A stretch of 64,000 nt of DNA, from the NCBI GenBank assembly GCA_022710645.1, contig JAKLGL010000001.1, positions 20,614-84,613 on the forward strand, read 5' to 3'. The notes beneath the pieces are model-generated. The model was given only the letters and a program-made list of their open reading frames with translations. It did not search any database and had not been told where the DNA came from. Shown here in pieces: positions 6,618 to 53,845 of this stretch. The first letter of the stretch is position 1. Each line of letters begins with the position of its first letter. The DNA is from Patescibacteria group bacterium. Lineage in GTDB: Bacteria; Patescibacteriota; Patescibacteriia; Magasanikbacterales; GWA2-37-8. Position numbers and translations under genes: made by a program.

Positions 6618-8051
6618 ATGAATCAAGAATTAATACAATATTTACAAAAACAAATAAGAACAGTTGAAGATAGGTTATATAAATATACTCACAATACCCA
6701 AGGAGGTAAATTACCTCAACGTTTTTTGTTTGTTAAAATTCAAAAATATCTCAATGATTTTTTAGGTAAAATTTCAGAAAACAGATTAATTATTATTCCT
6801 GGATTACGAGGTGTAGGTAAAACTACTTTGATGGCTCAAATTTGTAGTGATTTAATTGTAAATAAAAAAAATGTAAAAACATTATTCCTGTCATTAGATG
6901 AAGTAAAAAATCTTTTTAATGTTGGGATATCTGAAGTTATGCAAGCATATGAAGAAATTTTAGGTGAAGATTTGGAAAGTTTATCAGAAAATGTTGTTAT
7001 TTTTTTCGATGAAGTGCAAAGTGATCCAACCTGGGCAAAAGCATTGAAAATACTTCATGATAAAACATCCAAAATATTCTTTTGTTGTACAGGATCTTCA
7101 GCAGTAGTATTGCAATCAACCCCAGATATAGCTAGAGGTAGGGCTATATTTGAAAGAATGACCCCGATGTGTTTTATGGAATTTGAAATGGTTAAAGACA
7201 AAGTTTTTCCTACAAAACAATTAAAAAAAGATATATGGGATGCTGTTTATTTTTCCAAAGATGCTGTAGAGGTTTATGATAAATTATCAAAACTACAAAG
7301 TTTGGTAAATAATTATTGGAGCAAGGTGGATAGAAGAGATATGGAGAAATTTTTAGCATATGGATCTTTGCCATTTACTTTACAACTTCCAAACGAAACT
7401 ATTATTAATGATTCTATTTCTTTGTTATTGGATGGAATTATTAAAAAAGATTTACCGATGCTGAATGGTTTTGATGTTAAAACGTTATCACAAGTCAAAA
7501 GATTACTTTTTATTCTTGCTGAAAATGACACGACCAGTATCAATAAATTAGAGGAAATATTAGGTATTGATAGACTAACTATAGCGAGTTTATTGGATGC
7601 TTTAGAAAAAGCAGAATTGATTATAAAAATTTCGGCTTATGGTTCCAATATGTCGGTGGCAAAAAAACCAGCAAAATATCTTTTTATGTCTTCAGCTGTG
7701 CGTATGTCATTTTTTTCAATATCTGGAAATGAAAATACTTTTTCTACAAGAAAAGGAAAGCTCTTGGAAGATTCTGTAGGTACACATTTATATAGAGAAT
7801 TTATACTTAAAAATGATGGCGCTTTACGATATGATAGTTCGCAGAATGGCGCAGATTTTATTTTGCAAATTGCTAATAAAAAACAGATAATAATTGAAGT
7901 TGGTTTGGGTAAAAAAGACAGAAAACAAATTTTAAATAGCATGGAAAGAATTGATTCAGATTATGGCATAGTTTTTTCAAGTAATCCTTTAGTTATTGAT
8001 CAAGATAAAAAAATAGTCAATGTACCTTTGGATTATTATTTTTTAATGTAA
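6618..8051 (+). CDS. AAA+ ATPase of the AAA_14/DUF4143 (COG1373-like) type, embedded in the type I R-M locus
   Basis: Walker A 'GLRGVGKTTL' and Walker B 'VIFFDEVQ'. The C-terminal region 'NGADFILQ...IIIEVGLGKK' resembles the DUF4143 nuclease-like module. Confidence 0.7.
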   Translation: MNQELIQYLQKQIRTVEDRLYKYTHNTQGGKLPQRFLFVKIQKYLNDFLGKISENRLIIIPGLRGVGKTTLMAQICSDLIVNKKNVKTLFLSLDEVKNLFNVGISEVMQAYEEILGEDLESLSENVVIFFDEVQSDPTWAKALKILHDKTSKIFFCCTGSSAVVLQSTPDIARGRAIFERMTPMCFMEFEMVKDKVFPTKQLKKDIWDAVYFSKDAVEVYDKLSKLQSLVNNYWSKVDRRDMEKFLAYGSLPFTLQLPNETIINDSISLLLDGIIKKDLPMLNGFDVKTLSQVKRLLFILAENDTTSINKLEEILGIDRLTIASLLDALEKAELIIKISAYGSNMSVAKKPAKYLFMSSAVRMSFFSISGNENTFSTRKGKLLEDSVGTHLYREFILKNDGALRYDSSQNGADFILQIANKKQIIIEVGLGKKDRKQILNSMERIDSDYGIVFSSNPLVIDQDKKIVNVPLDYYFLM

Positions 8052-8055
8052 TCGT

Positions 8056-10395
8056 ATGAATGAATCAGAAACACGAGCTGAACTCATTGATCCCAAACTG
8101 AAAGCTAGTGGTTGGGGAGAAATAGAGGGCTCAAAAATTTTACGTGAATTTCGAATTACTGATGGACGTATTCAAACAGGTGGCACACGCACAAAGCCGG
8201 AAATAGCCGACTATATTTTGGTTTATAAAAATCAAAAGCTTGCGGTGATTGAAGCAAAAAAAGAAAGTTTGTCGGCTAGCGAGGGTGTAGCTCAAGCTAA
8301 AACTTATGCGGAAAAATTACAGATTGATTTTACTTATTCCACCAATGGCAAAGCAATTTACGAAATTTCAATGAAAACAGGTAAAGAAGGATTAGTGCGA
8401 GATTTTCCGACCCCCGACGAATTATGGAATAGAGTAAATGCAAAATCAAATGAATGGAAAGAAAAATTTGCAACTGTGCCAAACGAGGGAGATTATGGTA
8501 GTCGTTATTATCAAGAGATTGCGATAAACAATGTTTTGAATGCTGTGGCTGAAGGTAAAAATAGAATTCTTTTGACTATGGCAACTGGTACGGGTAAAAC
8601 CGCGGTAGCTTTTCAAATTGCTTGGAAACTTTTTCAAACGCGTTGGAATTTACAAAGAAATGGCGAACGCCGACCGAGAATTTTGTTTTTAGCTGATAGA
8701 AATATTTTGGCCGACCAAGCTTACAATGCTTTTTCTGCTTTTAAAGAAGACGCGCTTGTTCGAATTAATCCACTTGATATTCGTAAAAAGGGCAAAGTGC
8801 CAACTGGTGGAAGTATCTTTTTTACAATTTTTCAAACTTTCATGAGTGGTCCGAATAATACTTCATATTATGGAGATTATCCAGCGGACTTTTTTGATTT
8901 TATTATTATTGATGAGTGCCATCGTGGTGGAGCAAATGACGAAAGTAATTGGCGAGGAATTATGGAATATTTTGCTCCAGCAGTTCAACTTGGTTTAACC
9001 GCTACCCCACAAAGACGAGACAACGTTGATACCTATAGATATTTTGGGGAACCAGTTTATATTTATTCCCTCAAAGAAGGCGTAAACGATGGATTTTTAA
9101 CCCCGTTTAAAGTAAAAAGAATCAAAACTACCTTAGATGACTATGTTTATACGGTAGAAGATCAGATTGTGGAAGGGGAAGTTGAAGAAGGAAAAATTTA
9201 TGAAGAAGAAGATTTTAATAGAATTATAGAAATTCAAGAAAGAGAAGCAAAACGTGTAAAAATCATGTTTAGTGAAATAAATCAAAATGAAAAAACCATT
9301 GTGTTTTGTGCTACTCAAAGTCATGCTGCGGCTGTTCGCGATTTGATCAACCAATTGAAAGAAAATAAAGATCCAAATTATTGCGCTCGTGTAACAGCCA
9401 ATGATGGCGCGCGAGGAGATCAATTTTTACGTGATTTTCAAGATAATGAAAAAACTATTCCAACAATTTTGACCACTTCGCAAAAACTCTCAACTGGTGT
9501 GGATGCTCGCAATGTTCGCAATATTGTGTTGATGCGACCGGTAAATTCCATGATTGAATTTAAACAAATTATTGGACGCGGAACTCGTCTTTTTGATGGA
9601 AAAGAATTTTTTACTATTTTGGATTTTGTAGATGCTTATAAAAATTTTTCTGATCCAGCTTGGGACGGAGATCCTGTAGAAGTGATTGAAGAAAAACCTA
9701 CTAAAAAGAAGGTTGATAAAATAAAAGAGCCCAAAGCAAAATACGAACCGATTAGCGAAGAAGGAGAAGGCGAAGAACCAAAAAAGAAATTGGTTATTAA
9801 ATTAAGAAATGGAAAAGAACATGAAATTCAACACATGGTCTCAACTTCTTTTTGGAGTGCAGATGGCAAACCAATCACTTTGCAAGAATTATTAAATAGT
9901 ATGTATGAAAAATTGCCAGAATTTTTCAAAAATGAAGACGATTTACGTAGAATTTGGTCTAACCCTATTACTCGTAAAGCATTATTAGAAAAAATAGCTG
10001 ATGCAGGATATGGAAGAGAAGAATTGGAAACATTGCAAAAAATGATTGATGCAGAAAATAGCGATTTATTTGATGTTTTGTCTTTCTTTTTATATTCAGT
10101 TAAACCGATCACTAGAGAACAAAGAGTGGAAAAATCAAAGAAAACCATTTTTGATAAATTAGACAATGAACAAAAAGAATTTTTAGAATTTGTTTTGCAA
10201 AAATATATTGATAATGGCGTGGAAGAGTTGGAAGAAGAAAAATTACCTTTGTTGTTGAATTTAAAATATCATGCGATTGCCGATGCTATTAATCAGCTTG
10301 GTGATGTGGATAAAATTCGTTCGGTATTTTTTAGTTTCCAAAAGGAACTATATACTAAAGAAAAAATTAGTAATTTGTTTAGATGTTTTATTTAA
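8056..10395 (+). CDS. hsdR: type I restriction enzyme, R subunit (EcoEI-like short form)
   Basis: N-terminal 'ETRAELIDPKLKASGWG' HsdR_N motif. SF2 helicase motifs 'MATGTGKT' and the DECH box 'IIDECHRGG'. The C-terminal domain is EcoEI-R-like. Confidence 0.9.
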   Translation: MNESETRAELIDPKLKASGWGEIEGSKILREFRITDGRIQTGGTRTKPEIADYILVYKNQKLAVIEAKKESLSASEGVAQAKTYAEKLQIDFTYSTNGKAIYEISMKTGKEGLVRDFPTPDELWNRVNAKSNEWKEKFATVPNEGDYGSRYYQEIAINNVLNAVAEGKNRILLTMATGTGKTAVAFQIAWKLFQTRWNLQRNGERRPRILFLADRNILADQAYNAFSAFKEDALVRINPLDIRKKGKVPTGGSIFFTIFQTFMSGPNNTSYYGDYPADFFDFIIIDECHRGGANDESNWRGIMEYFAPAVQLGLTATPQRRDNVDTYRYFGEPVYIYSLKEGVNDGFLTPFKVKRIKTTLDDYVYTVEDQIVEGEVEEGKIYEEEDFNRIIEIQEREAKRVKIMFSEINQNEKTIVFCATQSHAAAVRDLINQLKENKDPNYCARVTANDGARGDQFLRDFQDNEKTIPTILTTSQKLSTGVDARNVRNIVLMRPVNSMIEFKQIIGRGTRLFDGKEFFTILDFVDAYKNFSDPAWDGDPVEVIEEKPTKKKVDKIKEPKAKYEPISEEGEGEEPKKKLVIKLRNGKEHEIQHMVSTSFWSADGKPITLQELLNSMYEKLPEFFKNEDDLRRIWSNPITRKALLEKIADAGYGREELETLQKMIDAENSDLFDVLSFFLYSVKPITREQRVEKSKKTIFDKLDNEQKEFLEFVLQKYIDNGVEELEEEKLPLLLNLKYHAIADAINQLGDVDKIRSVFFSFQKELYTKEKISNLFRCFI

Positions 10396-15645: not shown

Positions 15646-15700
15646 TGTCATTCTGAGTGAAACGAAGAATCCCTTCAATAAAACTTCAGAATAACGAAAA
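15646..15700. repeat. Dispersed imperfect-palindrome repeat, copy A (partly degenerate right arm)
   Basis: 'tgtcattctgagtgaaacgaagaatccc...cttcagaataacga' matches the left arm of the repeats at 17433, 20121 and 53766. Confidence 0.5.
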
Positions 15701-17432: not shown

Positions 17433-17510
17433 TGTCATCCTGAGTGTAACGAAGGATCTGTAAGAAAAGATTTTGCCTGTTGCAGATTCTTCACTTCGTT
17501 CAGAATGACA
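17433..17510. repeat. Dispersed imperfect-palindrome repeat, copy B (between rbr and the dfx start)
   Basis: Left arm tgtcatcctgagtgtaacgaaggatctg and right arm cagattcttcacttcgttcagaatgaca are near reverse complements. Confidence 0.6.
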
Positions 17511-18005: not shown

Positions 18006-18173
18006 TTATTCTTCGTTATCTTCGGATAAAGCGGTGATAACGGTCGCGCCGATTACTATCATAATAATAGCGACCGGCAATAGAATAGGATATTTAATAG
18101 GTTTAGGAAGTTTATCAAGCCAGTTGAAGAATTTTTCCAGGAGATATTCCCGGGAATTCATGGTCTCGGTCAT
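18006..18173 (-). CDS. unannotated small membrane peptide (55 aa)
   Basis: Below the 60-aa ORF-track cutoff. It has an ATG with a GGAG RBS ('ttttaaggag', 6 nt upstream) and a hydrophobic core 'PILLPVAIIMIVIGATVITAL'. It lies downstream of the 110-aa gene in the same orientation. Confidence 0.35.
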   Translation of the reverse strand: MTETMNSREYLLEKFFNWLDKLPKPIKYPILLPVAIIMIVIGATVITALSEDNEE

Positions 18174-18184
18174 AATACCCCTCC

Positions 18185-18514
18185 TTAAAAGTAACTGATG
18201 TTTTCCTCTTCAAAAAGACGGATGCTATTGAAAGCGTCAATGAACCAGGAGAGATGCGAGAAGAGAGGATTTTTTTTGAAATCTTCTTCTGTCTTGGTAA
18301 GCGCGATTTCCAGATCGGAAACCGTACTGACCAGTTTCTTGGCCAGGTAATGGTTGTCGGCACCTTGTGAAAACAGTCGGCTCATCAGAGCCGTTCTGCG
18401 TTTGACACAGGTGATTCGATAGCTGATGATAGCCGGAAGTTTTGTTTCTTCCGTTTTTTCCAAAAAAGAAACGAATTCTTTCATGGTTTTTGCGCTTTCT
18501 TCCTTCCAGTTCAT
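18185..18514 (-). CDS. hypothetical protein (110 aa)
   Basis: The internal Met start 'MNWKEESAK' is preceded by an AAGAGGAAGG RBS. The minus-strand promoter TTGACA-17-TATATT lies at plus 18573-18601. Confidence 0.45.
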   Translation of the reverse strand: MNWKEESAKTMKEFVSFLEKTEETKLPAIISYRITCVKRRTALMSRLFSQGADNHYLAKKLVSTVSDLEIALTKTEEDFKKNPLFSHLSWFIDAFNSIRLFEEENISYF

Positions 18515-18654: not shown

Positions 18655-20052
18655 TTAAAAGATAATGTTATTGGGTGTTCGCGGATAGGTGATTACATCA
18701 CGCACGTTTTTCATCCCTGTGAAATACATTATAGCGCGTTCAAAGCCCAGTCCGAATCCGGTATGAGGGAAAGTGCCGAATTTGCGAGAATCCAAATACC
18801 AAGAATAATCATCCGGATTGAGGCCGTGATCTTTTAATTTTTGCGTTAAAATATCCAAACGTTCTTCACGTTGCGATCCGCCGATGATTTCACCGATTCC
18901 CGGCACGAGCAAGTCAGTGGCAGCCACGGTTTTGCCGTCATCGTTGAGGCGCATATAAAACGCTTTTATTTCTTTCGGATAGTTGTAGACAAATACCGGT
19001 TTTTTATAAACGGTTTCTGCAAGATATCTTTCATGTTCGCTTTGCAAACCATCTTCCCATTTTACCGGGTATTCAAATTTTACTTTGGCTTTTTTGAGAA
19101 TTTCAATCGCTTCCGTATAAGTAATTCTGGCAAAATCATCTTTTAGAATATTTTCCAATTTTTCTATCAATCCCGGTTCGATGAATTCGTTGAAAAATTT
19201 CATTTCATCCGGCGCTTTTTCTAATAAATCTTTGATAAGATATTTGACAAATTCTTCGGCCAAATCCATATCATCAAACAGATCGGCAAAAGCTATCTCC
19301 GGTTCAATCATCCAAAATTCATTGGCGTGACGAGCGGTATTGCTATTTTCCGCGCGAAATGTCGGCCCGAAAGTATAGACATTACGATAAGCAAAACACA
19401 TTGATTCCACGGCCAATTGTCCGGAAACGGTAAGATAAGCTTCTTTTCCGAGTAATTCTTCGGAATAATTGATTTTCCCTTCAGCGGTTTTGGGAAGTTT
19501 GTTCAGGTCAAGTGTAGTGACGCGAAACATTTCACCTGCGCCTTCAGCGTCGTTACTCGTGATTATCGGAGTGTGAATATAAGTAAAACCTTTGTTTTCA
19601 AAAAAACGATGGATAGCTTGCGCTACTATGGAACGCGCGCGGAAAGTAGCCATAAAAGTATTGGTGCGCGGACGTAGGTGGGGGACAGTGCGTAAAAATT
19701 CAAAAGAATGACGTTTGGTTTGGATGGGATTACTCAAATCAGAGACGCCGACGATTTCAATACTCTTGGCTTGAACTTCAAAAGCTTGTTTTTCACCTTC
19801 GGACTTCACCAATTTACCCTCAACAATGAGAGATGAACCGGTATAAATATTTTCCAATTCGGAAAAATTTGGCAATTTATCGGTTAAAACGATTTGAATA
19901 TTTTTGTAACATGAACCGTCGTTAAATTCGATAAAGGCAAATGTTTTGGAAGAACGGGAAGTGCGGACCCAACCGGAAAGGCGCACTTCTTTGTCCAAGA
20001 ATTTTTTTGGGTTTTCCCAAATTTGTTTTACTAAGACGTTATTTTTTGACAT
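18655..20052 (-). CDS. asnS: asparaginyl-tRNA synthetase
   Basis: Class IIb aaRS with an N-terminal OB fold. '[21 protein letters not shown]' is diagnostic of AsnRS rather than AspRS. Length 465 aa. Confidence 0.9.
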
Positions 20053-20120: not shown

Positions 20121-20218
20121 TGTCATCCTGAACGCAGTGAAGGATCTGTAAGTAAAATAATTACTTTTTGCAGACCTACCTGCCGGTAGGCAGGTTCTTC
20201 GCTTCGCTCAGAATGACA
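20121..20218. repeat. Dispersed imperfect-palindrome repeat, copy C, with the embedded 20-bp palindromic module cctacctgccggtaggcagg (20175-20194)
   Basis: The same arms as copies B and D. The inner module is shared with 53723-53742. Confidence 0.6.
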
Positions 20219-20265
20219 ATAAAATTATTTCACGGGGTAAAAAAAAGACCCCGCAGGGTCTTGGG

Positions 20266-20679
20266 TTAATTGAAAGAAAAAATACGATTTTCTTTCGGAG
20301 GAGTGCTTACCGGAATTACCTGGTTTTTTTTCAGGTAACCGTAAATAAGAACTCCTTCCTTATTTGACCAACACTTCAAAGAAGCACAGCCGATGATTTT
20401 AGTCATCTCGATTTCTTTTTGGTGAAAGGTTTTTTTCTCGCAGATTACGCAAATGTTTTTTGGTAGTTTTTCGATATCCGTTTTTCTGTACAACGCGTAC
20501 AAAGTAACAGGTTCGCCTTCGACAAGCGGATTGTGACACCAAGGACACACAAAATGACTTGTCGTTACTACTTCTTTTTTTCTTCTCTGGAAAAATTTTT
20601 CCAAGAATTTTTCGAAAAAATTTCTCATGATATGCTCCGTATTGAAAGTTTGATAATAAAGAACGACTGCAGTATACAT
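20266..20679 (-). CDS. hypothetical Cys-rich (zinc-finger-like) protein
   Basis: CPWC...CVIC...C..C cysteine pairs. The terminator hairpin gaccccgcagggtc+T8 lies just downstream at 20240-20262. Start may be the internal M at 20626. Confidence 0.4.
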   Translation of the reverse strand: MYTAVVLYYQTFNTEHIMRNFFEKFLEKFFQRRKKEVVTTSHFVCPWCHNPLVEGEPVTLYALYRKTDIEKLPKNICVICEKKTFHQKEIEMTKIIGCASLKCWSNKEGVLIYGYLKKNQVIPVSTPPKENRIFSFN

Positions 20680-20710
20680 TCAACCGGTGTAAATGTAAAG
20701 GATGTTGAAG

Positions 20711-21016
20711 ATTAATAAAGGCGCGTGTACGGTCACGCGCCAAGGTGTTGATCTTTGCGTTTGTTTGTTCGATTGCCATGGCATAGGGTTGATCCTGGTT
20801 TTCGCATGTAAACAGAGTTCACATCTACTTGCCATCAGGAGGGCTCGAAAGAAACCGTATTCTTTCGGACAAACCAGCGGGCCCCCAAGAAGAGAGCTGC
20901 GCTGGGAGAATGGCCTCCCGGTTTTCACAGATAACGAATCGGCGACGATAATGTGGCGGATTTACCGCGGAGAAAAGAACCGTCGCCCCCTACTCAATCG
21001 CAAACACAAAGAACAA
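20711..21016 (-). ncRNA. candidate ~300-nt structured RNA or cis-regulatory leader in a GC-rich island (unclassified)
   Basis: Perfect TTGACA-17-TATAAT on the minus strand (plus 21047-21052 and 21023-21028). A strong terminator hairpin ggcgcgtg-tacggt-cacgcgcc plus a U-run lies at plus 20711-20741. GC is near 50%. ORFs overlap in three frames with no plausible protein. Confidence 0.4.
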
Positions 21017-21054
21017 CAGATGATTATAGCATAAAACAGAAGATTTGTCAATAT

Positions 21055-21083
21055 TTGCTTTATTATCAACCTTTGACTATAAT
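21055..21083 (+). promoter_or_regulatory. sigma70-like promoter TTGCTT-17-TATAAT, divergent from and back-to-back with the minus-strand ncRNA promoter
   Basis: Read from the sequence. It drives the 84-aa zinc-ribbon gene, whose RBS is GGGGGAGG. Confidence 0.5.
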
Positions 21084-21142
21084 ACAAACAGAAGGAAAAA
21101 GGCCAAAATAGGCCCTTTACCAACTTTCCGGGGGAGGATAAA

Positions 21143-21397
21143 ATGCCGGAAAACAACAAAAGTTGTCCTTTATGCGGCGGACAACTGAAAAAAAGCCGTG
21201 TAGGCAGTGTTGTCAACATCATGGTGGGCGAAATTCAACACCTTTTCGCCAAAGGGTTGACAATGGAAAAAAAACCGTTCCTTTCATTTAGGTGTTGGGG
21301 CTACCAATGTCAGAATTCTCAATGCGGAAATATCTTTTCCGCAAGACAACTTGAGCAAGAGAAGGAGGAGTATCTTCACCAAACAGCATGCGGGTAG
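21143..21397 (+). CDS. small zinc-ribbon protein (84 aa)
   Basis: CPLCGG...CWGYQCQNSQCG cysteine motifs. Strong RBS, and a terminator hairpin at about 21400-21470. Confidence 0.5.
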   Translation: MPENNKSCPLCGGQLKKSRVGSVVNIMVGEIQHLFAKGLTMEKKPFLSFRCWGYQCQNSQCGNIFSARQLEQEKEEYLHQTACG

Positions 21398-21523
21398 CTT
21401 TTGCCCAAAGGCGGTTCTTCTTTAACAGCGTTCGCGCTGTAAACTGAAGACCGCCTTTACTTTTTTTATAATTTATTTTAATATTTTAAAAGAACTTTTG
21501 ATAAACAGGAGGAAAGAGGAAAA

Positions 21524-21691
21524 ATGGAAAAGTTTTGTTCTCTAACCGGAGATATTGTTGGCGGTTGTGTGATAGTTTTTGTCATCGCCGTATCTCTGGT
21601 TATTGTTACAACGCCGGTGATTATCTGTCGCGGCGGCCTGGAAATTTTCTGGTTTTTTCAAACCAAAAAATACAAGGCAAAACAAGGCTCT
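21524..21691 (+). CDS. unannotated small membrane peptide (55 aa)
   Basis: RBS 'caggaggaaagagg' before the ATG. Hydrophobic core 'GCVIVFVIAVSLVIVTTPVII'. The terminator ccctttcgcgcgaaaggg+T follows immediately. Confidence 0.4.
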
Positions 21692-21740
21692 TTTTAACCC
21701 TTTCGCGCGAAAGGGTTTTTTATTATATTATTATATATAG

Positions 21741-21769
21741 TTGACAAAACCGCTATTATGTTCTATGAT
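21741..21769 (+). promoter_or_regulatory. sigma70-like promoter TTGACA-17-TATGAT
   Basis: Read from the sequence. It lies upstream of the 112-aa zinc-ribbon ORF, whose RBS is GGAGG. Confidence 0.5.
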
Positions 21770-21829
21770 TAGCTGTTCTTTAAAAATAAAATTATTCCCG
21801 ATTTTTTAATAAATAATGGAGGAAAAAGA

Positions 21830-22168
21830 ATGAATGGCTTCGATTATTTTAAAGGAATTGACCCAACAATCCCGGTGGAAAAGTGCAAAAAATGCGGAAG
21901 AGGGTTCATGATGCTTTTTGGAGAAATTCCGAGAGTAGATTATCCTTTCATTCCGCCAAATGAAGAGGATCCCGTTCTTGTCAATCTCTCGTTGAGAAAA
22001 CCAGGAGAAGACAAGGAAAAGTTAATTGCCGGAATAATCCGTCTTTTTTACAGGTGCAACTGTTGCGGTAACAAAGAAAACACCGCTACTGGCAGAGAAA
22101 AAAACGAGACGGAAATTATCGGTAAACATGGAACCACCCAACCCGGTGATAGCCTGGAAATGGAATAG
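21830..22168 (+). CDS. small zinc-ribbon protein (112 aa)
   Basis: CKKCGRG...CNCCGN motifs. It has its own promoter, RBS and terminator-like hairpin. Confidence 0.5.
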   Translation: MNGFDYFKGIDPTIPVEKCKKCGRGFMMLFGEIPRVDYPFIPPNEEDPVLVNLSLRKPGEDKEKLIAGIIRLFYRCNCCGNKENTATGREKNETEIIGKHGTTQPGDSLEME

Positions 22169-22289
22169 TTTTTTATTCAACCAAAGGCCTTGATCTCAAG
22201 GTCTTTTTTTATTTTGTTTTTTGTTTTAGCCAGGGTTGTCTTTTTTCTTCTTTTACGTTATGATAAAGACACTAAAATTAATAAATTTA

Positions 22290-25222
22290 TGTCAAAAAAC
22301 ACTTTAAATAAAGCGCAAAAAACAGCTATTGAATATGTTGATGGTCCGCTCATGATAGTGGCTGGCGCCGGTACGGGCAAAACTACGGTGATTACCAAAA
22401 AAATAGCCCACATTTTGGAAAACAAATTGGCAACTCCCGAACAAATTTTAGCTTTGACTTTCAATGAAAAAGCGGCGGCTGAAATGCAAGAGAGATTAGA
22501 TGAGATGCTATCTATCGGTTATACGGAAATGCAAATTTCCACTTTTCACGCTTTTGCGGAAAAGATTTTGGAAAACTACGGTTTGGATATCGGGCTTTCC
22601 AATCAGTTCAAAATTTTGACTGAAACTGACGCTTGGTTATTGATGAAAAAAAATTTGGACAAGTTTAATCTGGATTATTATCGTCCTTTGGGCAATCCGG
22701 TGCGTCATATTCACGAACTCATCAAACATTTCAGCAAGTGCAAAGATGAATTGATAACTCCGGAAAAATATCTGGAATACGCGGAAAATTTAAAATTGGA
22801 TAAAGATAACGTTGAAATCGAAGAAAAAACCCGATTGAGCGAGGTGGCCAACGCTTATCATGTTTACAATCGTCTTTTGCTGGATAGTAATGCTTTGGAT
22901 TTCGGAGATTTGATTTATTACAGCGTGGAATTATTGAAAAAAAGAAAAAATATTTTGCAACAATTTCATCGCCGATTCAAATATATTTTGGTGGATGAAT
23001 TTCAAGATGTGAATTACGCGCAATATGAATTGGTCAAAATATTGGTTGAAGGTGGCGCGCAATTGACCGTGGTCGGAGACGATGATCAGAGTATCTACGC
23101 TTTCCGTGGCGCCAATGTGAGTAATATTTTGCGTTTTAAAGAAGATTTCAAAAATTGCAAGGAAGTTGTTTTGACGGAAAATTATAGAAGCGGACAAGAA
23201 ATACTCGATGTTGCTTATAAAAGCGTTGCAAATAACAATCCGGATAGATTGGAAGTAAAATTAAATATTGATAAAAGACTCGTCGCTTCCGGAGAGATAA
23301 AAACAGGAGAAGTTATTCACGCTCATTTGGAAACTCTGGACGATGAAGCCAAATTTGTCATTGATGAAATAAAGAAAATAAAAGAAAAAAACAAAGATGT
23401 CACTTGGGACGATTTTGCCATTTTGGTGCGTGCCAATTCTCATGCCGACCCTTTTATAAATTTATTGCAAAATTTCGGCATCCCTTACGAATTTTTGAGC
23501 AGTAGCGGATTGTTTCGTCAAGAAGTTGTTTTGGATTGTTATAATTTTTTCAAAGCTATAGACGGTTATCATGAAAATACCGCAATTTATAGAATATTAC
23601 GTTTGCCGTTTTTGGAGGTAAGTGAAAATGATTTGCAAAAAATGCTTTTATTTGCCAAACGTAAAACCGTATCTTATTACGAAGCTCTGAAACGCGGCAA
23701 AGAATACGGACTCGGTAAAGAAGGCGAGAAAATTTTTGCGGAAATCCTCGATTTTTTACACGAGGGGATGAAACAACAGAAAAGCGAAAAACCCACCAGA
23801 ATTTTGTATAATTTTTTGGAAAATAGCGGTTATTTGAAATTTTTGGCGCGCGGCGAACAAGAAGGAAACAGAGAAGTTATTCGTCGAATTTATCAATTGA
23901 AGCAATATTTTGATTACGTGCAAAATTTCGAAAAAATGGTTCCGGGAGCCAAAGTTTCCGATTTTGTCGCGCATTTTGCCGATGTACTGGATGCCGGAGA
24001 TTTGGGTGTTCTCAAACAACCGCAAGAAAGTCCGGATTCGGTCAATATCATGACTGTACACATGTCCAAAGGTTTGGAATTCAAATATGTTTTTGTGGTT
24101 AATTTGGTGGAAGATAGATTTCCGACTAGAAAAAGAAATGAAGGTATAGATATGCCAATACCTCTTCTTCACGAACAGATGCCCGAAGGGGATTATCATC
24201 TGCAAGAAGAAAGAAGGTTGTTTTATGTGGCAATTACTCGCGCCAAAGAAAAACTTTATTTATTGTCCGGAAAAAATTACGGCGGATCTCGTGATAAAAA
24301 AATCAGTCGATTTTTGAACGAGCTCGGATATACGGTCGGTAAATATGACAAGAAAAAATCCACAAGCGCTTTACCAAAATTGGAAAAAGTCAACGAAGAA
24401 AAAGGTAAGTTTATTTATGATTTACCGAAAAGTTTTTCTTTTTCTCAAATCAGTTCTTATGAAGATTGTCCTTACCAATATAAATTGAAAAATATTTTGC
24501 AATTGCAGATTAAAGGCGGTCCGCAATTTTCTTTCGGCCAAAGTATGCATTCCACTTTGCAAAAATTTTATATCCGCATCAAAGACTTGAATTCCGCTAA
24601 ACAAGAAAGTTTATTTGGTTTACCGGAAAAAAATTCGAAAATCGACGGTGAAATAAAGGTTCCGACTTTGGAAGAATTGTTGAAAATGTATGAAGAATCG
24701 TTTATCGATGATTGGTATAATAGTGCCAAACAACGCGAAGATTATTTTTTGCGAGGTAAAGAAATATTGCGTGATTATTATCGTGTTAACGAAGGTAAAT
24801 GGACCGTGCCGGTAGCCTTGGAGCAAAGATTCAAATATAAATTGGGAAAGTATCTGATTTCCGGACGAATTGACAGGATAGATATGACACCGGATAAAAA
24901 ATTAAAAATCGTGGATTATAAAACCGGAAATCCAAAAGAAAAGCTGGAGACCGAAGATAAAAATCAATTGTTAATATATCAATTGGCGTTATCCTCTTTG
25001 CCGGAATTTAAAAATCTCGGAGAAGTGAACGCTTTGACCTATCTTTATTTGTCCGATCAAAGCGAACTGACTTTTATCGGCACGGAAAAAGAATTGGAAA
25101 AAATAAAAGAGAAAATCACGGAAATTATCGATGCTATAAATTCCGGTAATTTTGAAGCCGAGCCGAGTAAATTTACTTGCGCGCGTTGCGATTTTCGAGA
25201 TATTTGCGAATTCAGAGAATAA
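22290..25222 (+). CDS. UvrD/PcrA-family SF1 helicase fused to a C-terminal Cas4/AddB-like PD-(D/E)xK Fe-S nuclease domain
   Basis: Walker A 'AGAGTGKTTVI', then 'LVDEFQD' and 'VGDDDQSIY'. The C-terminus has 'IDRIDMT...IVDYKTG' and a 'C...CARCDFRDIC' cysteine cluster. Start at MSKNTLNK; the ORF-track 22190 extension is hydrophobic junk. Confidence 0.85.
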
Positions 25223-53765: not shown

Positions 53766-53845
53766 TATCATCCTGAGTCGTAGACGAAGGATCTGCAAAA
53801 AGCAATAATGCTACTTACAGATTCTTCACTTTGTTCAGAATGACA
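53766..53845. repeat. Dispersed imperfect-palindrome repeat, copy D (between def and fmt)
   Basis: Arms atcatcctgagtcgtagacgaaggatctg and cagattcttcactttgttcagaatgaca, the same family as 17433 and 20121. Confidence 0.6.

What the first reader, a model, noticed from the sequence alone, without database searches (positions are those of the whole stretch)
20266..22170. Cluster of independently transcribed small Cys-rich or zinc-ribbon proteins and a 55-aa membrane peptide
Three small proteins carry CxxC pairs: 137 aa on the minus strand, and 84 aa and 112 aa on the plus strand. An unannotated 55-aa TM peptide lies among them. Each has its own near-consensus promoter, strong RBS and terminator, and back-to-back divergent promoters sit at 21023-21083. 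The density of autonomous mini-genes around a GC-rich ncRNA is unusual and reminiscent of accessory or prophage-remnant modules or small regulatory zinc-finger proteins.
Basis: seen in the sequence. Interest (0 to 1): 0.5.

Follow-up and report, generated by a model that had tools for sequence, protein, structure and literature searches.

The report
Conserved small zinc-protein genes, CPR bacterium
Between two housekeeping genes of an uncultured Candidatus Magasanikbacteria bacterium lie four separately signalled small genes beside an unclassified structured RNA; three of them are real genes shared with sister species, one is a recent species-specific addition, nothing points to a prophage, and their function is still unknown.

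Summary
The four ORFs are real, with corrections. The "137-aa" protein (A) is 120 aa. The membrane peptide (C) is 57 aa. The minus-strand promoter of the divergent pair drives a ~300-nt RNA, not a protein gene. C has only a -10 box.

The window is from a Candidatus Magasanikbacteria MAG. No Pfam, NCBIfam or PADLOC model and no phage or plasmid sequence matches significantly.

A word-index search made A, B and D look like orphans. A full HMMER search then found five A homologues (29-51% identity), which led to syntenic loci from relatives.

- **A (120 aa):** conserved CxWC...GCx4C motif. It or a paralogous domain sits next to asnS in five species.
- **B (84 aa):** conserved in both relatives whose contig covers its position, 83% and about 50% identity, with a C2H2-like C-terminal half.
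- **C (57 aa):** 49% identical in one relative, and a weaker positional analogue exists in another.
- **D (112 aa):** lies on a ~460-490-nt insertion absent from both relatives that cover its position.
- **RNA:** promoter, terminator and three sequence islands are conserved, stems co-vary, and there is no Rfam match.

dN/dS for A, B and C is 0.13-0.18.

This is a vertically inherited chromosomal block of lineage-restricted small zinc proteins, not a prophage remnant. Interest is modest.

The parts
20266..20628 (-). Gene A: 120-aa basic (pI 9.4) Cys-rich protein. It has an N-terminal amphipathic basic helix and conserved CPWC (C28/C31) and GCx4C (C81/C86). It lies immediately upstream of asnS.
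   Evidence: ORF. Homologues at 51/40/36/33/29% identity by full HMMER. Invariant columns. dN/dS 0.16 against sp2. RBS GGAG.
20671..20699 (-). Promoter of gene A (TTTACA-17-TATACT).
   Evidence: It is conserved as TTTACA-17-TATAAT in sp2 and sp4 (alignment A2).
20245..20262 (-). Intrinsic terminator after gene A (AAGACCCTGCGGGGTCTT plus T-run).
   Evidence: An identical hairpin follows the sp2 A gene.
20711..21016 (-). Unclassified structured RNA of about 300 nt, GC 0.50. Its ends are inferred from the promoter and the terminator (stem 20720-20741).
   Evidence: Fold z = -5.6. No Rfam match. No coding signal. Conserved islands and co-varying stems in 3 species.
21023..21051 (-). Promoter of the RNA: TTGACA-17-TATAAT with TG, 12/12 consensus.
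   Evidence: TTGAC...TTTTATGCTA(T/A)A is conserved in sp2 and sp4.
21055..21083 (+). Promoter of gene B (TTGCTT-17-TATAAT), back to back with the RNA promoter.
   Evidence: Read. The -10 is invariant, and the -35 is conserved in sp2.
21097..21118 (+). Stem-loop in the 5' UTR of gene B.
   Evidence: AAAGG...CCTTT pairing is kept in sp2 and sp4, as read by eye from alignment A2.
21143..21397 (+). Gene B: 84-aa protein with CPxCGG (C8/C11), H33, C51, C56-x4-C61-x3-F and a C-terminal Hx3C. It probably has two zinc sites. The C-terminal half is C2H2-like.
   Evidence: Homologues at 83% (sp2) and 49-53% (sp4) identity. dN/dS 0.135. Weak C2H2 and Zn-ribbon hits.
21407..21467 (+). Terminator after gene B: 24-nt arms plus a T-run.
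   Evidence: I5. A similar hairpin follows B in sp4.
21524..21697 (+). Gene C: 57-aa single-pass membrane peptide with a basic C-terminal tail ending KQGSF.
   Evidence: Maximum KD19 hydropathy 2.97. 49% identical in sp2, dN/dS 0.18. A 75-aa TM peptide ending GRYGTF sits at the same position in sp4.
21696..21717 (+). Terminator after gene C.
21718..22182 (+). Species-specific insertion carrying D's promoter (21741-21769), RBS and ORF. The boundaries are good to about +/-35 nt.
   Evidence: blastn leaves window 21726-22216 unaligned, where sp2 has 16 nt. Alignment.
21830..22168 (+). Gene D: 112-aa acidic (pI 5.5) protein with CKKC and CNCC. No homologue was found, and it is absent from the syntenic position in sp2 and sp4.
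   Evidence: It has the best codon score of the four, 0.18.
22183..22206 (+). Terminator after D. A degenerate counterpart exists in sp2.

Best explanation
This is a vertically inherited chromosomal block in a narrow clade of Candidatus Magasanikbacteria (CPR). It contains separately signalled small genes arranged around an unclassified ~300-nt structured RNA.

**What is shown.**
- Order in the window: asnS <- A <- RNA | B -> C -> D -> AddA-like helicase.
- A, B and C are protein-coding genes under purifying selection.
- D lies on a recent insertion that is absent from the two relatives covering its position.

**What is inferred.**
- A and B are cytoplasmic zinc-stabilised mini-domains.
  - A uses CxWC plus GCx4C.
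  - B has two sites: C8/C11/H33/C51 and C56/C61/H79/C83.
- They most likely act as nucleic-acid- or protein-binding regulators or adaptors. B, with its C2H2-like half and its promoter back to back with the RNA promoter, is the best candidate for a DNA- or RNA-binding factor.
- A-like domains have multiplied on both sides of asnS in this clade.
- C is a small membrane peptide.
- All four genes use strong Shine-Dalgarno sites in a genome where most genes have none. This suggests translation from discrete 5'-UTR-bearing transcripts.
For: **Source.** The MAG is annotated as Candidatus Magasanikbacteria. The same sequence is 100% identical in five contigs.

**Gene A.**
- Full HMMER over 1.84 billion representatives finds five real homologues of 108-120 aa, with E from 1.7e-33 to 3e-5.
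- The invariant columns are M1, C28, W30, C31, T42, L46, G80, C81, C86, G97 and L99.

**Synteny.**
- sp2 (L094, L102) and sp4 (L099) keep helicase-(C)-B | RNA-A-asnS.
- sp3 (L097) keeps A-asnS.

**Selection.**
| Gene | dN/dS |
|---|---|
| A | 0.16 |
| B | 0.135 (pN 0.085, pS 0.44) |
| C | 0.18 |
| asnS | 0.08 |
| helicase | 0.07 |

**A-like domains next to asnS.**
- In L103, asnS is 91% identical to the window's copy and is followed 33 nt later by an A paralogue.
- In sp3, the 243-aa gene after asnS carries a TM segment plus a C-terminal A-like domain with both Cys pairs.

**Gene B.** Invariant Cys/His pattern. Sub-threshold similarity to C2H2 fingers and zinc ribbons.

**Gene D.** Its insertion is shown.

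**Expression signals.**
- Promoters and RBSs of A, B and the RNA are conserved across three species.
- A Shine-Dalgarno site is present in 4 of 4 small genes against 5 of 45 long genes, Fisher p = 6e-4.

**Composition.** Cys is enriched 7-10 fold.
Against: - No function is demonstrated. Zinc binding and nucleic-acid binding are inferred from Cys/His spacing only.
- All family-level matches for B are below the curated cut-offs.
- AlphaFold2 single-sequence models of A and D were unusable (pLDDT 36 and 43).
- Codon-usage scores of A, B and C (0.07, -0.06, 0.05) lie between real genes (0.32 +/- 0.14) and shadow ORFs (-0.16 +/- 0.16). NCBI's annotation does not call B.
- All relatives are close (AsnRS 88-91% identical). 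The A-asnS adjacency could therefore be inherited rather than functional.
- dS is near saturation for A and C.
- D has no comparative support at all.
Confidence: 0.6

Rival explanations
1. The RNA and the small proteins form one functional module. For example, A or B binds the structured RNA as an RNP. Alternatively, the RNA acts as a protein-responsive attenuator or leader upstream of A-asnS. B might also regulate the divergent RNA promoter.
For: - The RNA ends in a terminator about 90 nt upstream of A on the same strand. It shares a back-to-back promoter region with B, and this arrangement is kept in three species.
- A and B are basic (pI 9.4 and 8.6).
- The RNA is strongly structured (z = -5.6).
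Against: - A has its own conserved promoter between the RNA terminator and its start codon.
- A-like paralogues downstream of asnS in L103 and sp3 follow asnS directly, with no such RNA in between.
- There is no T-box or other riboswitch match.
- No binding data exist.
Confidence: 0.15
2. The cluster is a prophage or mobile-element remnant, or an accessory island.
For: - It contains dense autonomous mini-genes with atypical codon usage and atypical Shine-Dalgarno use.
- There is one borderline PHROG hit for A (phrog_4005, E = 1e-3, function unknown).
- D is a self-contained inserted cassette.
- A MITE-like element lies next to A.
Against: - There are no tblastn hits in 50,697 phage records. 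D's only match is a chance one inside a 330-aa ORF.
- Plasmids were searched for D only, with no hit. IMG/VR was searched for B and D only, with none. There is no PADLOC hit.
- No integrase or att-like repeats were found.
- The block is syntenic between housekeeping genes in sp2 and sp4, and A-asnS is kept in sp3.
Confidence: 0.05
3. D is not a functional gene. It could be a chance ORF on inserted DNA, or a very young de novo ORF.
For: - No homologue was found.
- It is absent from sp2 and sp4.
- It is not a detectable paralogue of A or B.
- The structure model has low confidence.
Against: - A 112-codon ORF is very unlikely by chance here (0.04 expected per shuffle).
- It has an 11/12 promoter, a GGAGG at 7 nt and a terminator.
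- It has the best codon score of the four, 0.18, above every shadow ORF.
- Both JGI and NCBI call it.
- The only homology search run on D was the word-index one, which missed A's 51%-identical homologue. "Orphan" is therefore unproven.
Confidence: 0.25
4. C is a type I toxin-like membrane peptide and the locus is a toxin-antitoxin or addiction module.
For: - C is 57 aa with a single hydrophobic helix and a basic tail.
- It has a strong SD.
- Weak minus-strand promoter-like sites lie nearby, at 21784..21755 and 21504..21475.
Against: - No antisense RNA is evident.
- C is syntenic and under purifying selection like an ordinary small membrane protein.
- There is no PADLOC or Pfam toxin match.
Confidence: 0.05

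Closest known systems
Ogr/Delta-like zinc-finger transcription activators of P2/P4 phages (Pfam PF04606)
   Same: B has CPLC...(R) near the N-terminus. Later it has YQC-QNSQ-C-GNI-F, which matches the family's C-x4-C-x3-F half-motif. Its size, about 80 aa, is similar.
   Different: The Pfam score is 13.1 bits against a 26.3 cut-off. The two Cys pairs are 44 residues apart in B. The Pfam family description, as I recall it, gives about 22. B has extra conserved H33, C51 and a C-terminal Hx3C. No phage context exists.
C2H2-type zinc fingers (eukaryotic type; prokaryotic Ros/MucR relatives)
   Same: A profile of B's residues 51-79 aligns with the Y-x-C-x(2,4)-C-G-K-x-F-S...L...H pattern of designed and natural C2H2 fingers. 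The sp4 member hits zf-C2H2_4 at E = 5e-4.
   Different: The spacing from the second Cys to His is 15-17 residues rather than 12. The last ligand is Cys (Hx3C). Each individual finger match is insignificant (i-Evalue of at least 0.23). No fold model could be made.
Small zinc-ribbon proteins of unknown function (Zn_ribbon_8 / FmdB CxxC_CxxC_SSSS family)
   Same: They are short proteins with a CPxCG knuckle. All three B members give weak Zn_ribbon_8 hits, the best at E = 2.6e-4.
   Different: The window's B scores 14.0 bits against the 34.4 cut-off. A has no zinc-ribbon family hit at all, and its second ligand pair is GCx4C.
Small bacterial membrane peptides and type I toxins
   Same: C is 57 aa with one TM helix and a basic tail.
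   Different: No antisense RNA or toxin family match was found. C is conserved in synteny.
Housekeeping or regulatory structured RNAs (6S RNA, T-box leaders, RNase P RNA)
   Same: The RNA has a strong promoter, a closing 5'/3' helix (clear in the window, weaker in sp4 and sp2), high GC in an AT-rich genome, and a position upstream of an aminoacyl-tRNA synthetase gene.
   Different: No Rfam match appears even at E = 10. The predicted fold is branched, not rod-like. The RNA diverges beyond blastn recognition between species whose neighbouring genes are 83% identical.

Membership tests
Ogr/Delta-like zinc finger (PF04606), for B | Pfam gathering score of 26.3 bits | tested here: not met
   13.1 bits, E = 0.092, matching only residues 54-69.
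Ogr/Delta-like zinc finger (PF04606), for B | C-x2-C-x3-A-x2-R-x15-C-x4-C-x3-F spacing (Pfam description, recalled from memory) | tested here: not met
   Both half-motifs are present (CPLC..R19; C56-x4-C61-x3-F65). However, the Cys pairs are 44 residues apart, and sp4 has C-x2-C.
C2H2 zinc finger, for B's C-terminal half | C-x2-4-C-x12-H-x3-5-H ligand spacing with F/L core residues | tested here: inconclusive
   Cx4C (Cx2C in sp4), F65 and L70 are present. His comes 15-17 residues after the second Cys, and the last ligand is Cys. zf-C2H2_4 gives E = 5e-4 for 1 of 3 members. PDB profile hits reach 2.5e-5 only by summing repeats.
Zinc ribbon (Zn_ribbon_8 / FmdB), for B | Pfam gathering score of 34.4 bits, or NCBIfam TIGR02605 cut-off of 31.3 | tested here: not met
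   14.0 and 13.0 bits for the window's B. The best family member reaches E = 2.6e-4.
Any Pfam, NCBIfam or PDB family, for A | A significant sequence or profile match | tested here: not met
   The best Pfam E-value is 0.003 (PyrI_C, one member). There are no PDB hits with the family profile at E up to 10.
Zinc-binding protein (generic), for A and B | Four conserved Cys/His ligands | tested here: met
   A: C28, C31, C81 and C86 are invariant in 6 sequences. B: C8, C11, H33, C51, C56 and C61 are invariant in 3.
Zinc-binding protein (generic), for A and B | Bound zinc | not testable with these tools
   This needs metal analysis of purified protein.
Prophage or mobile-element remnant | Phage- or plasmid-related genes, an integrase, flanking att repeats, or variable presence among relatives | tested here: not met
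   There are no phage hits for A, B or D. Plasmids were searched for D only and viral contigs for B and D only. There is no PADLOC hit and no flanking repeats. A, B and C are syntenic in relatives. Only D is variable.
Type I toxin, for C | A small hydrophobic peptide plus an overlapping antisense RNA antitoxin | tested here: inconclusive
   The peptide feature is met. Only weak antisense promoter-like sites exist. There are no expression data.
Rfam RNA families (including T-box, 6S, RNase P, tmRNA, SRP) | A covariance-model match | tested here: not met
   No hit at gathering score in 64 kb. Nothing on the RNA's strand reached E of 10 or better in the window or E of 5 or better in the sp2 and sp4 loci. 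ARAGORN finds no tmRNA or tRNA.

The most novel reading that the evidence does not exclude
The ~300-nt structured RNA and the zinc proteins A and/or B form a CPR-lineage-specific ribonucleoprotein or regulatory circuit tied to asnS. For example, the RNA could be a protein-sensed attenuator or an RNA sponge controlling asparaginyl-tRNA synthetase and neighbouring genes. The rapidly diversifying A-like domains around asnS would be its specificity factors.
Probability: 0.1. Interest if true: 0.65.

Novelty: new member of a known kind. Interest (0 to 1): 0.35.

Why it matters
- CPR bacteria carry very many small hypothetical genes that are usually ignored or mis-called.
- Here three such genes are shown to be real, selected and syntenic. 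They define two small Cys/His-motif families with no Pfam or NCBIfam model. One of them is repeatedly placed next to asnS.
- They sit beside a strongly promoted structured RNA with no Rfam family.
- The locus also exposes annotation errors.
  - B is not called by NCBI.
  - Spurious ORFs are called over the RNA in sp2 and over B in sp4.
- There is also a search pitfall. The word-index search made genes with 51% and 83% identical homologues look like orphans.
- If the RNA and proteins act together, this would be a new regulatory module in a poorly understood phylum. If not, these are ordinary lineage-specific small proteins.

Tried and rejected
1. **The search for related loci with AsnRS in genome contigs.** It returned only 57-64% identical loci, mostly Firmicutes.
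2. **The search for related loci with the helicase in metagenome contigs.** It returned two unrelated UvrD/PcrA loci at 29-31% identity. This scan was also spent.
3. **The search for homologous proteins for A, B and D.** Only self hits came back. This was later shown to be a sensitivity failure, not orphan status.
5. **AlphaFold2 on single sequences of A and D.** pLDDT was 36 and 43, so no fold search was run.
6. **Within-species variation.** All five same-species contigs are 100% identical over the cluster region compared, and later look-ups returned the same contigs again. No polymorphism test was possible.
7. **Paralogy among A, B and D.** None was detectable.
8. **Phage, plasmid and viral searches.** These were tblastn, IMG/VR, PHROGs and PADLOC. 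Nothing convincing appeared. The Salmonella jumbo-phage hit for D lies inside a 330-aa ORF and is chance.
9. **Long-protein "hits" to A (P0006, P0011, P0014...).** These are translated tandem repeats, not homologues.
10. **The RNA as a known class or a coding region.**
    - Rfam gave no match.
    - The P4 consensus, the tRNA-like end, the SRP domain IV motif and the T-box sequence were looked for by eye and not found.
    - tblastx showed no coding signal.
11. **The inverted repeat flanking the cluster (I1).** It arises only because asnS and the helicase both begin MSKN...
Full report
**1. What is in the sequence**

The window has 36% GC. Region 20266-22170 lies between asnS (18655..20052, minus strand; class II tRNA synthetase domain hit at E = 1e-67) and an AddA-like UvrD plus PD-(D/E)XK helicase-nuclease (22289..25222, plus strand). 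DciA and MreB, MreC and PBP2 follow.

- A: 20266..20679(-)
- B: 21143..21397(+)
- C: 21524..21697(+), 57 aa
- D: 21830..22168(+)

They are unlikely to be chance.
- The region holds 6 ATG-ORFs of at least 84 aa, against 0.21 expected in shuffles (0 of 1000 shuffles reach it).
- The proteins contain 4.5-7.1% Cys, against 0.66% in the window's long genes.

The consensus scan gives these signals:

| Feature | Promoter | Terminator |
|---|---|---|
| GC-rich region (minus strand) | 21051..21023, perfect TTGACA-17-TATAAT with TG | 20741..20720 |
| A | 20699..20671, 10/12 | 20262..20245 |
| D | 21741..21769, 11/12 | 22183..22206 |
| C | none with a -35 | 21696..21717 |

From direct reading of the sequence:
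- B has TTGCTT-17-TATAAT (21055-21083) and a long terminator hairpin at 21407-21458.
- C has only a TATAAT at 21467-21472 and no -35.

All four ORFs have GGAG/GGAGG 5-11 nt before the ATG.

**2. Source and the first, misleading homology result**

Exact look-ups place the window in a MAG annotated as Candidatus Magasanikbacteria (GCA_035454185.1), in two JGI metagenomes and in a Logan assembly. All copies are 100% identical over the cluster region compared, so there is no within-species variation to use.

- Pfam, NCBIfam and PADLOC give nothing significant for A-D, and PHROGs gives only one borderline hit for A, E = 1e-3.
- The word-index homology search returned only self hits for A, B and D.
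- My two collection scans, with AsnRS and with the helicase, brought no syntenic relatives.

**3. The full HMMER search changes the picture**

phmmer with the 120-aa A protein against 1.84 billion representatives found five genuine homologues of 108-120 aa:

| Protein | Identity to A | E-value |
|---|---|---|
| P0004 | 51% | 1.7e-33 |
| P0005 | 40% | 7e-21 |
| P0007 | 29% | 5.2e-7 |
| P0009 | 36% | 2.8e-5 |
| P0010 | 33% | 3.0e-5 |

The other hits are translated tandem repeats.

The alignment shows these features.
- An N-terminal basic amphipathic helix.
- Invariant C28-x-W30-C31.
- Invariant G80-C81-x4-C86.
- The window's CVIC is not conserved.
- All homologues start at the Met of the 120-aa form.

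The 137-aa ATG lies inside A's own promoter, so A is 120 aa.

Looking up the contigs of these homologues gave syntenic loci from relatives.
- **sp2** (L094, L095, L096, L102): helicase 89% and AsnRS 89% aa identity.
- **sp3** (L097, L098): AsnRS 88%.
- **sp4** (L099-L101): helicase 77%.
- **L103**: AsnRS 91%.

**4. Conservation of each gene**

tblastn and ORF listing show the following.

*Gene B*
- It is 83% identical in sp2 (84 aa).
- It is 49-53% identical in sp4 (77 aa; the figure depends on the alignment method).
- Gene callers missed it in both species. In sp4 an overlapping 184-aa ORF was called instead.

*Gene C*
- It is 49% identical in sp2 (57 aa).
- In sp4 a 75-aa single-pass peptide with its own GGGGG RBS occupies the same position. 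It ends ...GRYGTF, compared with ...KQGSF and ...KQGTF.

*Gene D*
- It has no counterpart.
- In sp2 and sp4 the C terminator is followed almost directly by the helicase promoter.
- Window positions ~21718/21726 to ~22182/22216 correspond to 16 nt in sp2.
- By parsimony D was gained in the window's lineage.
- I cannot call D an orphan in general. The only database search run on it was the one that missed A's 51%-identical homologue.

*Selection (Nei-Gojobori)*

| Comparison | dN/dS | Notes |
|---|---|---|
| A, window-sp2 | 0.16 | |
| B, window-sp2 | 0.135 | pN 0.085, pS 0.44 |
| C, window-sp2 | 0.18 | |
| asnS | 0.08 | |
| helicase | 0.07 | |

A, B and C are therefore protein-coding and under purifying selection. 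A and C evolve fast, at about 50% aa identity where their neighbours keep 89%.

*Codon usage*
- In-frame codon scores are 0.07 (A), -0.06 (B), 0.05 (C) and 0.18 (D).
- Real genes score 0.32 +/- 0.14 and shadow ORFs score -0.16 +/- 0.16.
- In each case the annotated frame is the best of the six.
- Composition is atypical, which fits Cys-rich, fast-evolving small proteins.

**5. What the proteins look like**

*Protein A* (pI 9.4) has four invariant Cys in a CxWC...GCx4C arrangement.
- No Pfam or PDB relative was found, even with the family profile.
- A-like domains cluster around asnS.
  - A stand-alone copy lies upstream of asnS in the window, sp2, sp3 and sp4.
  - A paralogue lies 33 nt downstream of asnS in L103.
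  - A C-terminal A-like domain, with both Cys pairs, is fused to a TM segment in the 243-aa gene downstream of asnS in sp3 (HMM E = 3.5e-6 against all ORFs).
- All these genomes are close relatives, so adjacency by descent cannot be separated from functional coupling. The two different arrangements suggest local duplication and turnover.

*Protein B* (pI 8.6) has these conserved features.
- Invariant C8-P-x-C11-G-G-Q-L-K, R19, I31-Q-H33-L, R50-C51, G-Y-Q-C56, C61-G, F65-S and Q69-L70.
- A C-terminal H-x3-C once a 2-residue shift is allowed.
- This fits two four-ligand sites.
- The family profile aligns residues 51-79 with C2H2 fingers (Aart at 2.5e-5 by summed repeats; 2dlk at 1.3e-3).
- The sp4 member hits zf-C2H2_4 at 5e-4, and all three members hit Zn_ribbon_8, the best at 2.6e-4.
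- The Ogr/Delta half-motif C-x4-C-x3-F is present, but the score (13.1 against 26.3 bits) and the spacing fail.
- These are leads, not memberships.

*Protein C* is a single-pass membrane peptide (KD19 2.97).

*Protein D* (pI 5.5) has CKKC and CNCC and is not a detectable paralogue of A or B.

AlphaFold2 single-sequence models of A and D were unusable.

**6. The RNA between A and B**

*In the window*
- On the minus strand, the consensus promoter and the terminator delimit about 300 nt of 50% GC.
- The sequence folds far better than shuffles (-116.6 kcal/mol, z = -5.6).
- It has a long 5'/3' closing helix.
- Rfam gives nothing at gathering score in the 64 kb. Nothing on the RNA's strand appears at E up to 10 in the window or E up to 5 in the sp2 and sp4 loci. 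ARAGORN finds nothing.

*In sp2 and sp4*
- A ~300-nt GC-rich (0.47-0.49) segment sits at the same place.
- The promoter is conserved (TTGAC...TTTTATGCTA(T/A)A), as are a terminator and A's downstream promoter.
- The bodies have diverged beyond blastn recognition between the window and sp2, although flanking genes are 83% identical.
- tblastx shows no coding signal.

*Conserved islands at matching distances from the start*
- GAUUC directly after a hairpin.
- GAUGG..GUA at position 185 in all three.
- CCAGG(AUCAACCCU) at positions 220-240.

*Co-varying stems*

| Stem | Window | sp4 | sp2 |
|---|---|---|---|
| Hairpin before GAUUC | GGCGACG/CGUCGCC | GUGGUG/CACCAC | GCGACAG/CUGUCGU |
| Next helix | UAGGG/CCCUA | CAGGG/CCCUG | not found |
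| Terminator | GGCGCGUG/CACGCGCC | GAGGCGCGUG/CACGCGCCUC | GGGUGCGC/GCGCACCC |

This is a real, fast-evolving, structured and probably highly expressed RNA without a known family. With three sequences the structure is only suggestive.

**7. Interpretation**

- The block is inherited chromosomal DNA of a narrow Magasanikbacteria clade, not a prophage remnant.
- The best-supported reading is a set of lineage-restricted small proteins.
  - Two are conserved Cys/His mini-domains (A, B), most likely zinc-stabilised binders of nucleic acid or protein.
  - One is a membrane peptide (C).
  - One is a recent cassette (D).
- All four use strong SD sites in a genome where only 5 of 45 long genes have one and several appear leaderless (Fisher p = 6e-4).
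- A functional link among the RNA, A, B and asnS is possible but untested.
- Novelty is limited to new small families of a familiar kind plus an unclassified RNA.

Noticed in passing
window 20711-21051 (-); L094 5188-5510 (+); L099 4908-5205 (+): A ~300-nt GC-rich structured RNA with a perfect sigma-70 consensus promoter and an intrinsic terminator. It has no Rfam family. It is conserved in position, promoter, terminator and three sequence islands in three species, with co-varying stems. Its body diverges much faster than the neighbouring genes.
   Followed up: partly
window 20121-20218, 17433-17510; single ends at 15646-15671 and 53820-53845: MITE-like intergenic elements of about 80-100 bp bounded by inverted repeats TGTCATYCTGARCGNAGYGAAGRAYC (6 matches, 0 expected). 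The copy between A and asnS is absent from sp2. The Logan assembly breaks next to it, roughly 30-40 nt away.
   Followed up: partly
whole window (starts of 45 long ORFs): Only about 5 of 45 long genes have a GGAG-type Shine-Dalgarno. Several have a TATAAT 6-10 nt before the ATG (for example starts at 6618, 30320 and 40085(-)), suggesting leaderless mRNAs. By contrast all four small genes have strong SDs, and those of A and B are conserved in sp2 and sp4.
   Followed up: partly
window 18006-18514 (-); L094 7625-8719; L097 1994-2725; L103 1062-1766: The region downstream of asnS is also a variable small-gene zone.
- Window: 109-aa and 55-aa (TM) ORFs.
- sp2: an extra 202-aa gene.
- sp3: a 243-aa TM protein with an A-like domain.
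- L103: an A paralogue plus a 78-aa TM protein.
   Followed up: partly
L084 (NCBI record), L094 5174-5407 (-), L099 4172-4726 (-): Annotation errors.
- NCBI does not call B.
- In sp2 a 77-aa ORF is called antisense to the RNA, while B is missed.
- In sp4 a 184-aa ORF is called across B and the TM peptide in a wrong frame.
   Followed up: yes
window 18655-20052 (-): The best AsnRS matches among GTDB species representatives are only 57-64% identical and are mostly Firmicutes. Clade relatives are 88-91% identical. This raises the possibility of an old horizontal origin of asnS in this lineage.
   Followed up: no
window 21143-22168 (+): B, C and D all lie in the same reading frame, separated by stops. 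This is probably coincidence (a 1 in 9 chance).
   Followed up: no
window 6618-10395 (+): An AAA_14/DUF4143 ATPase with a weak nSTAND3 hit, followed by an HsdR-like type I restriction helicase, lies about 10 kb upstream (Pfam marks). It may be a defence locus.
   Followed up: no
method: The word-index protein search returned only self hits for A and B, although 51% and 83% identical homologues exist in public assemblies. B's relatives are not called as genes there. "No homologue" from that tool is unreliable for short proteins.
   Followed up: yes
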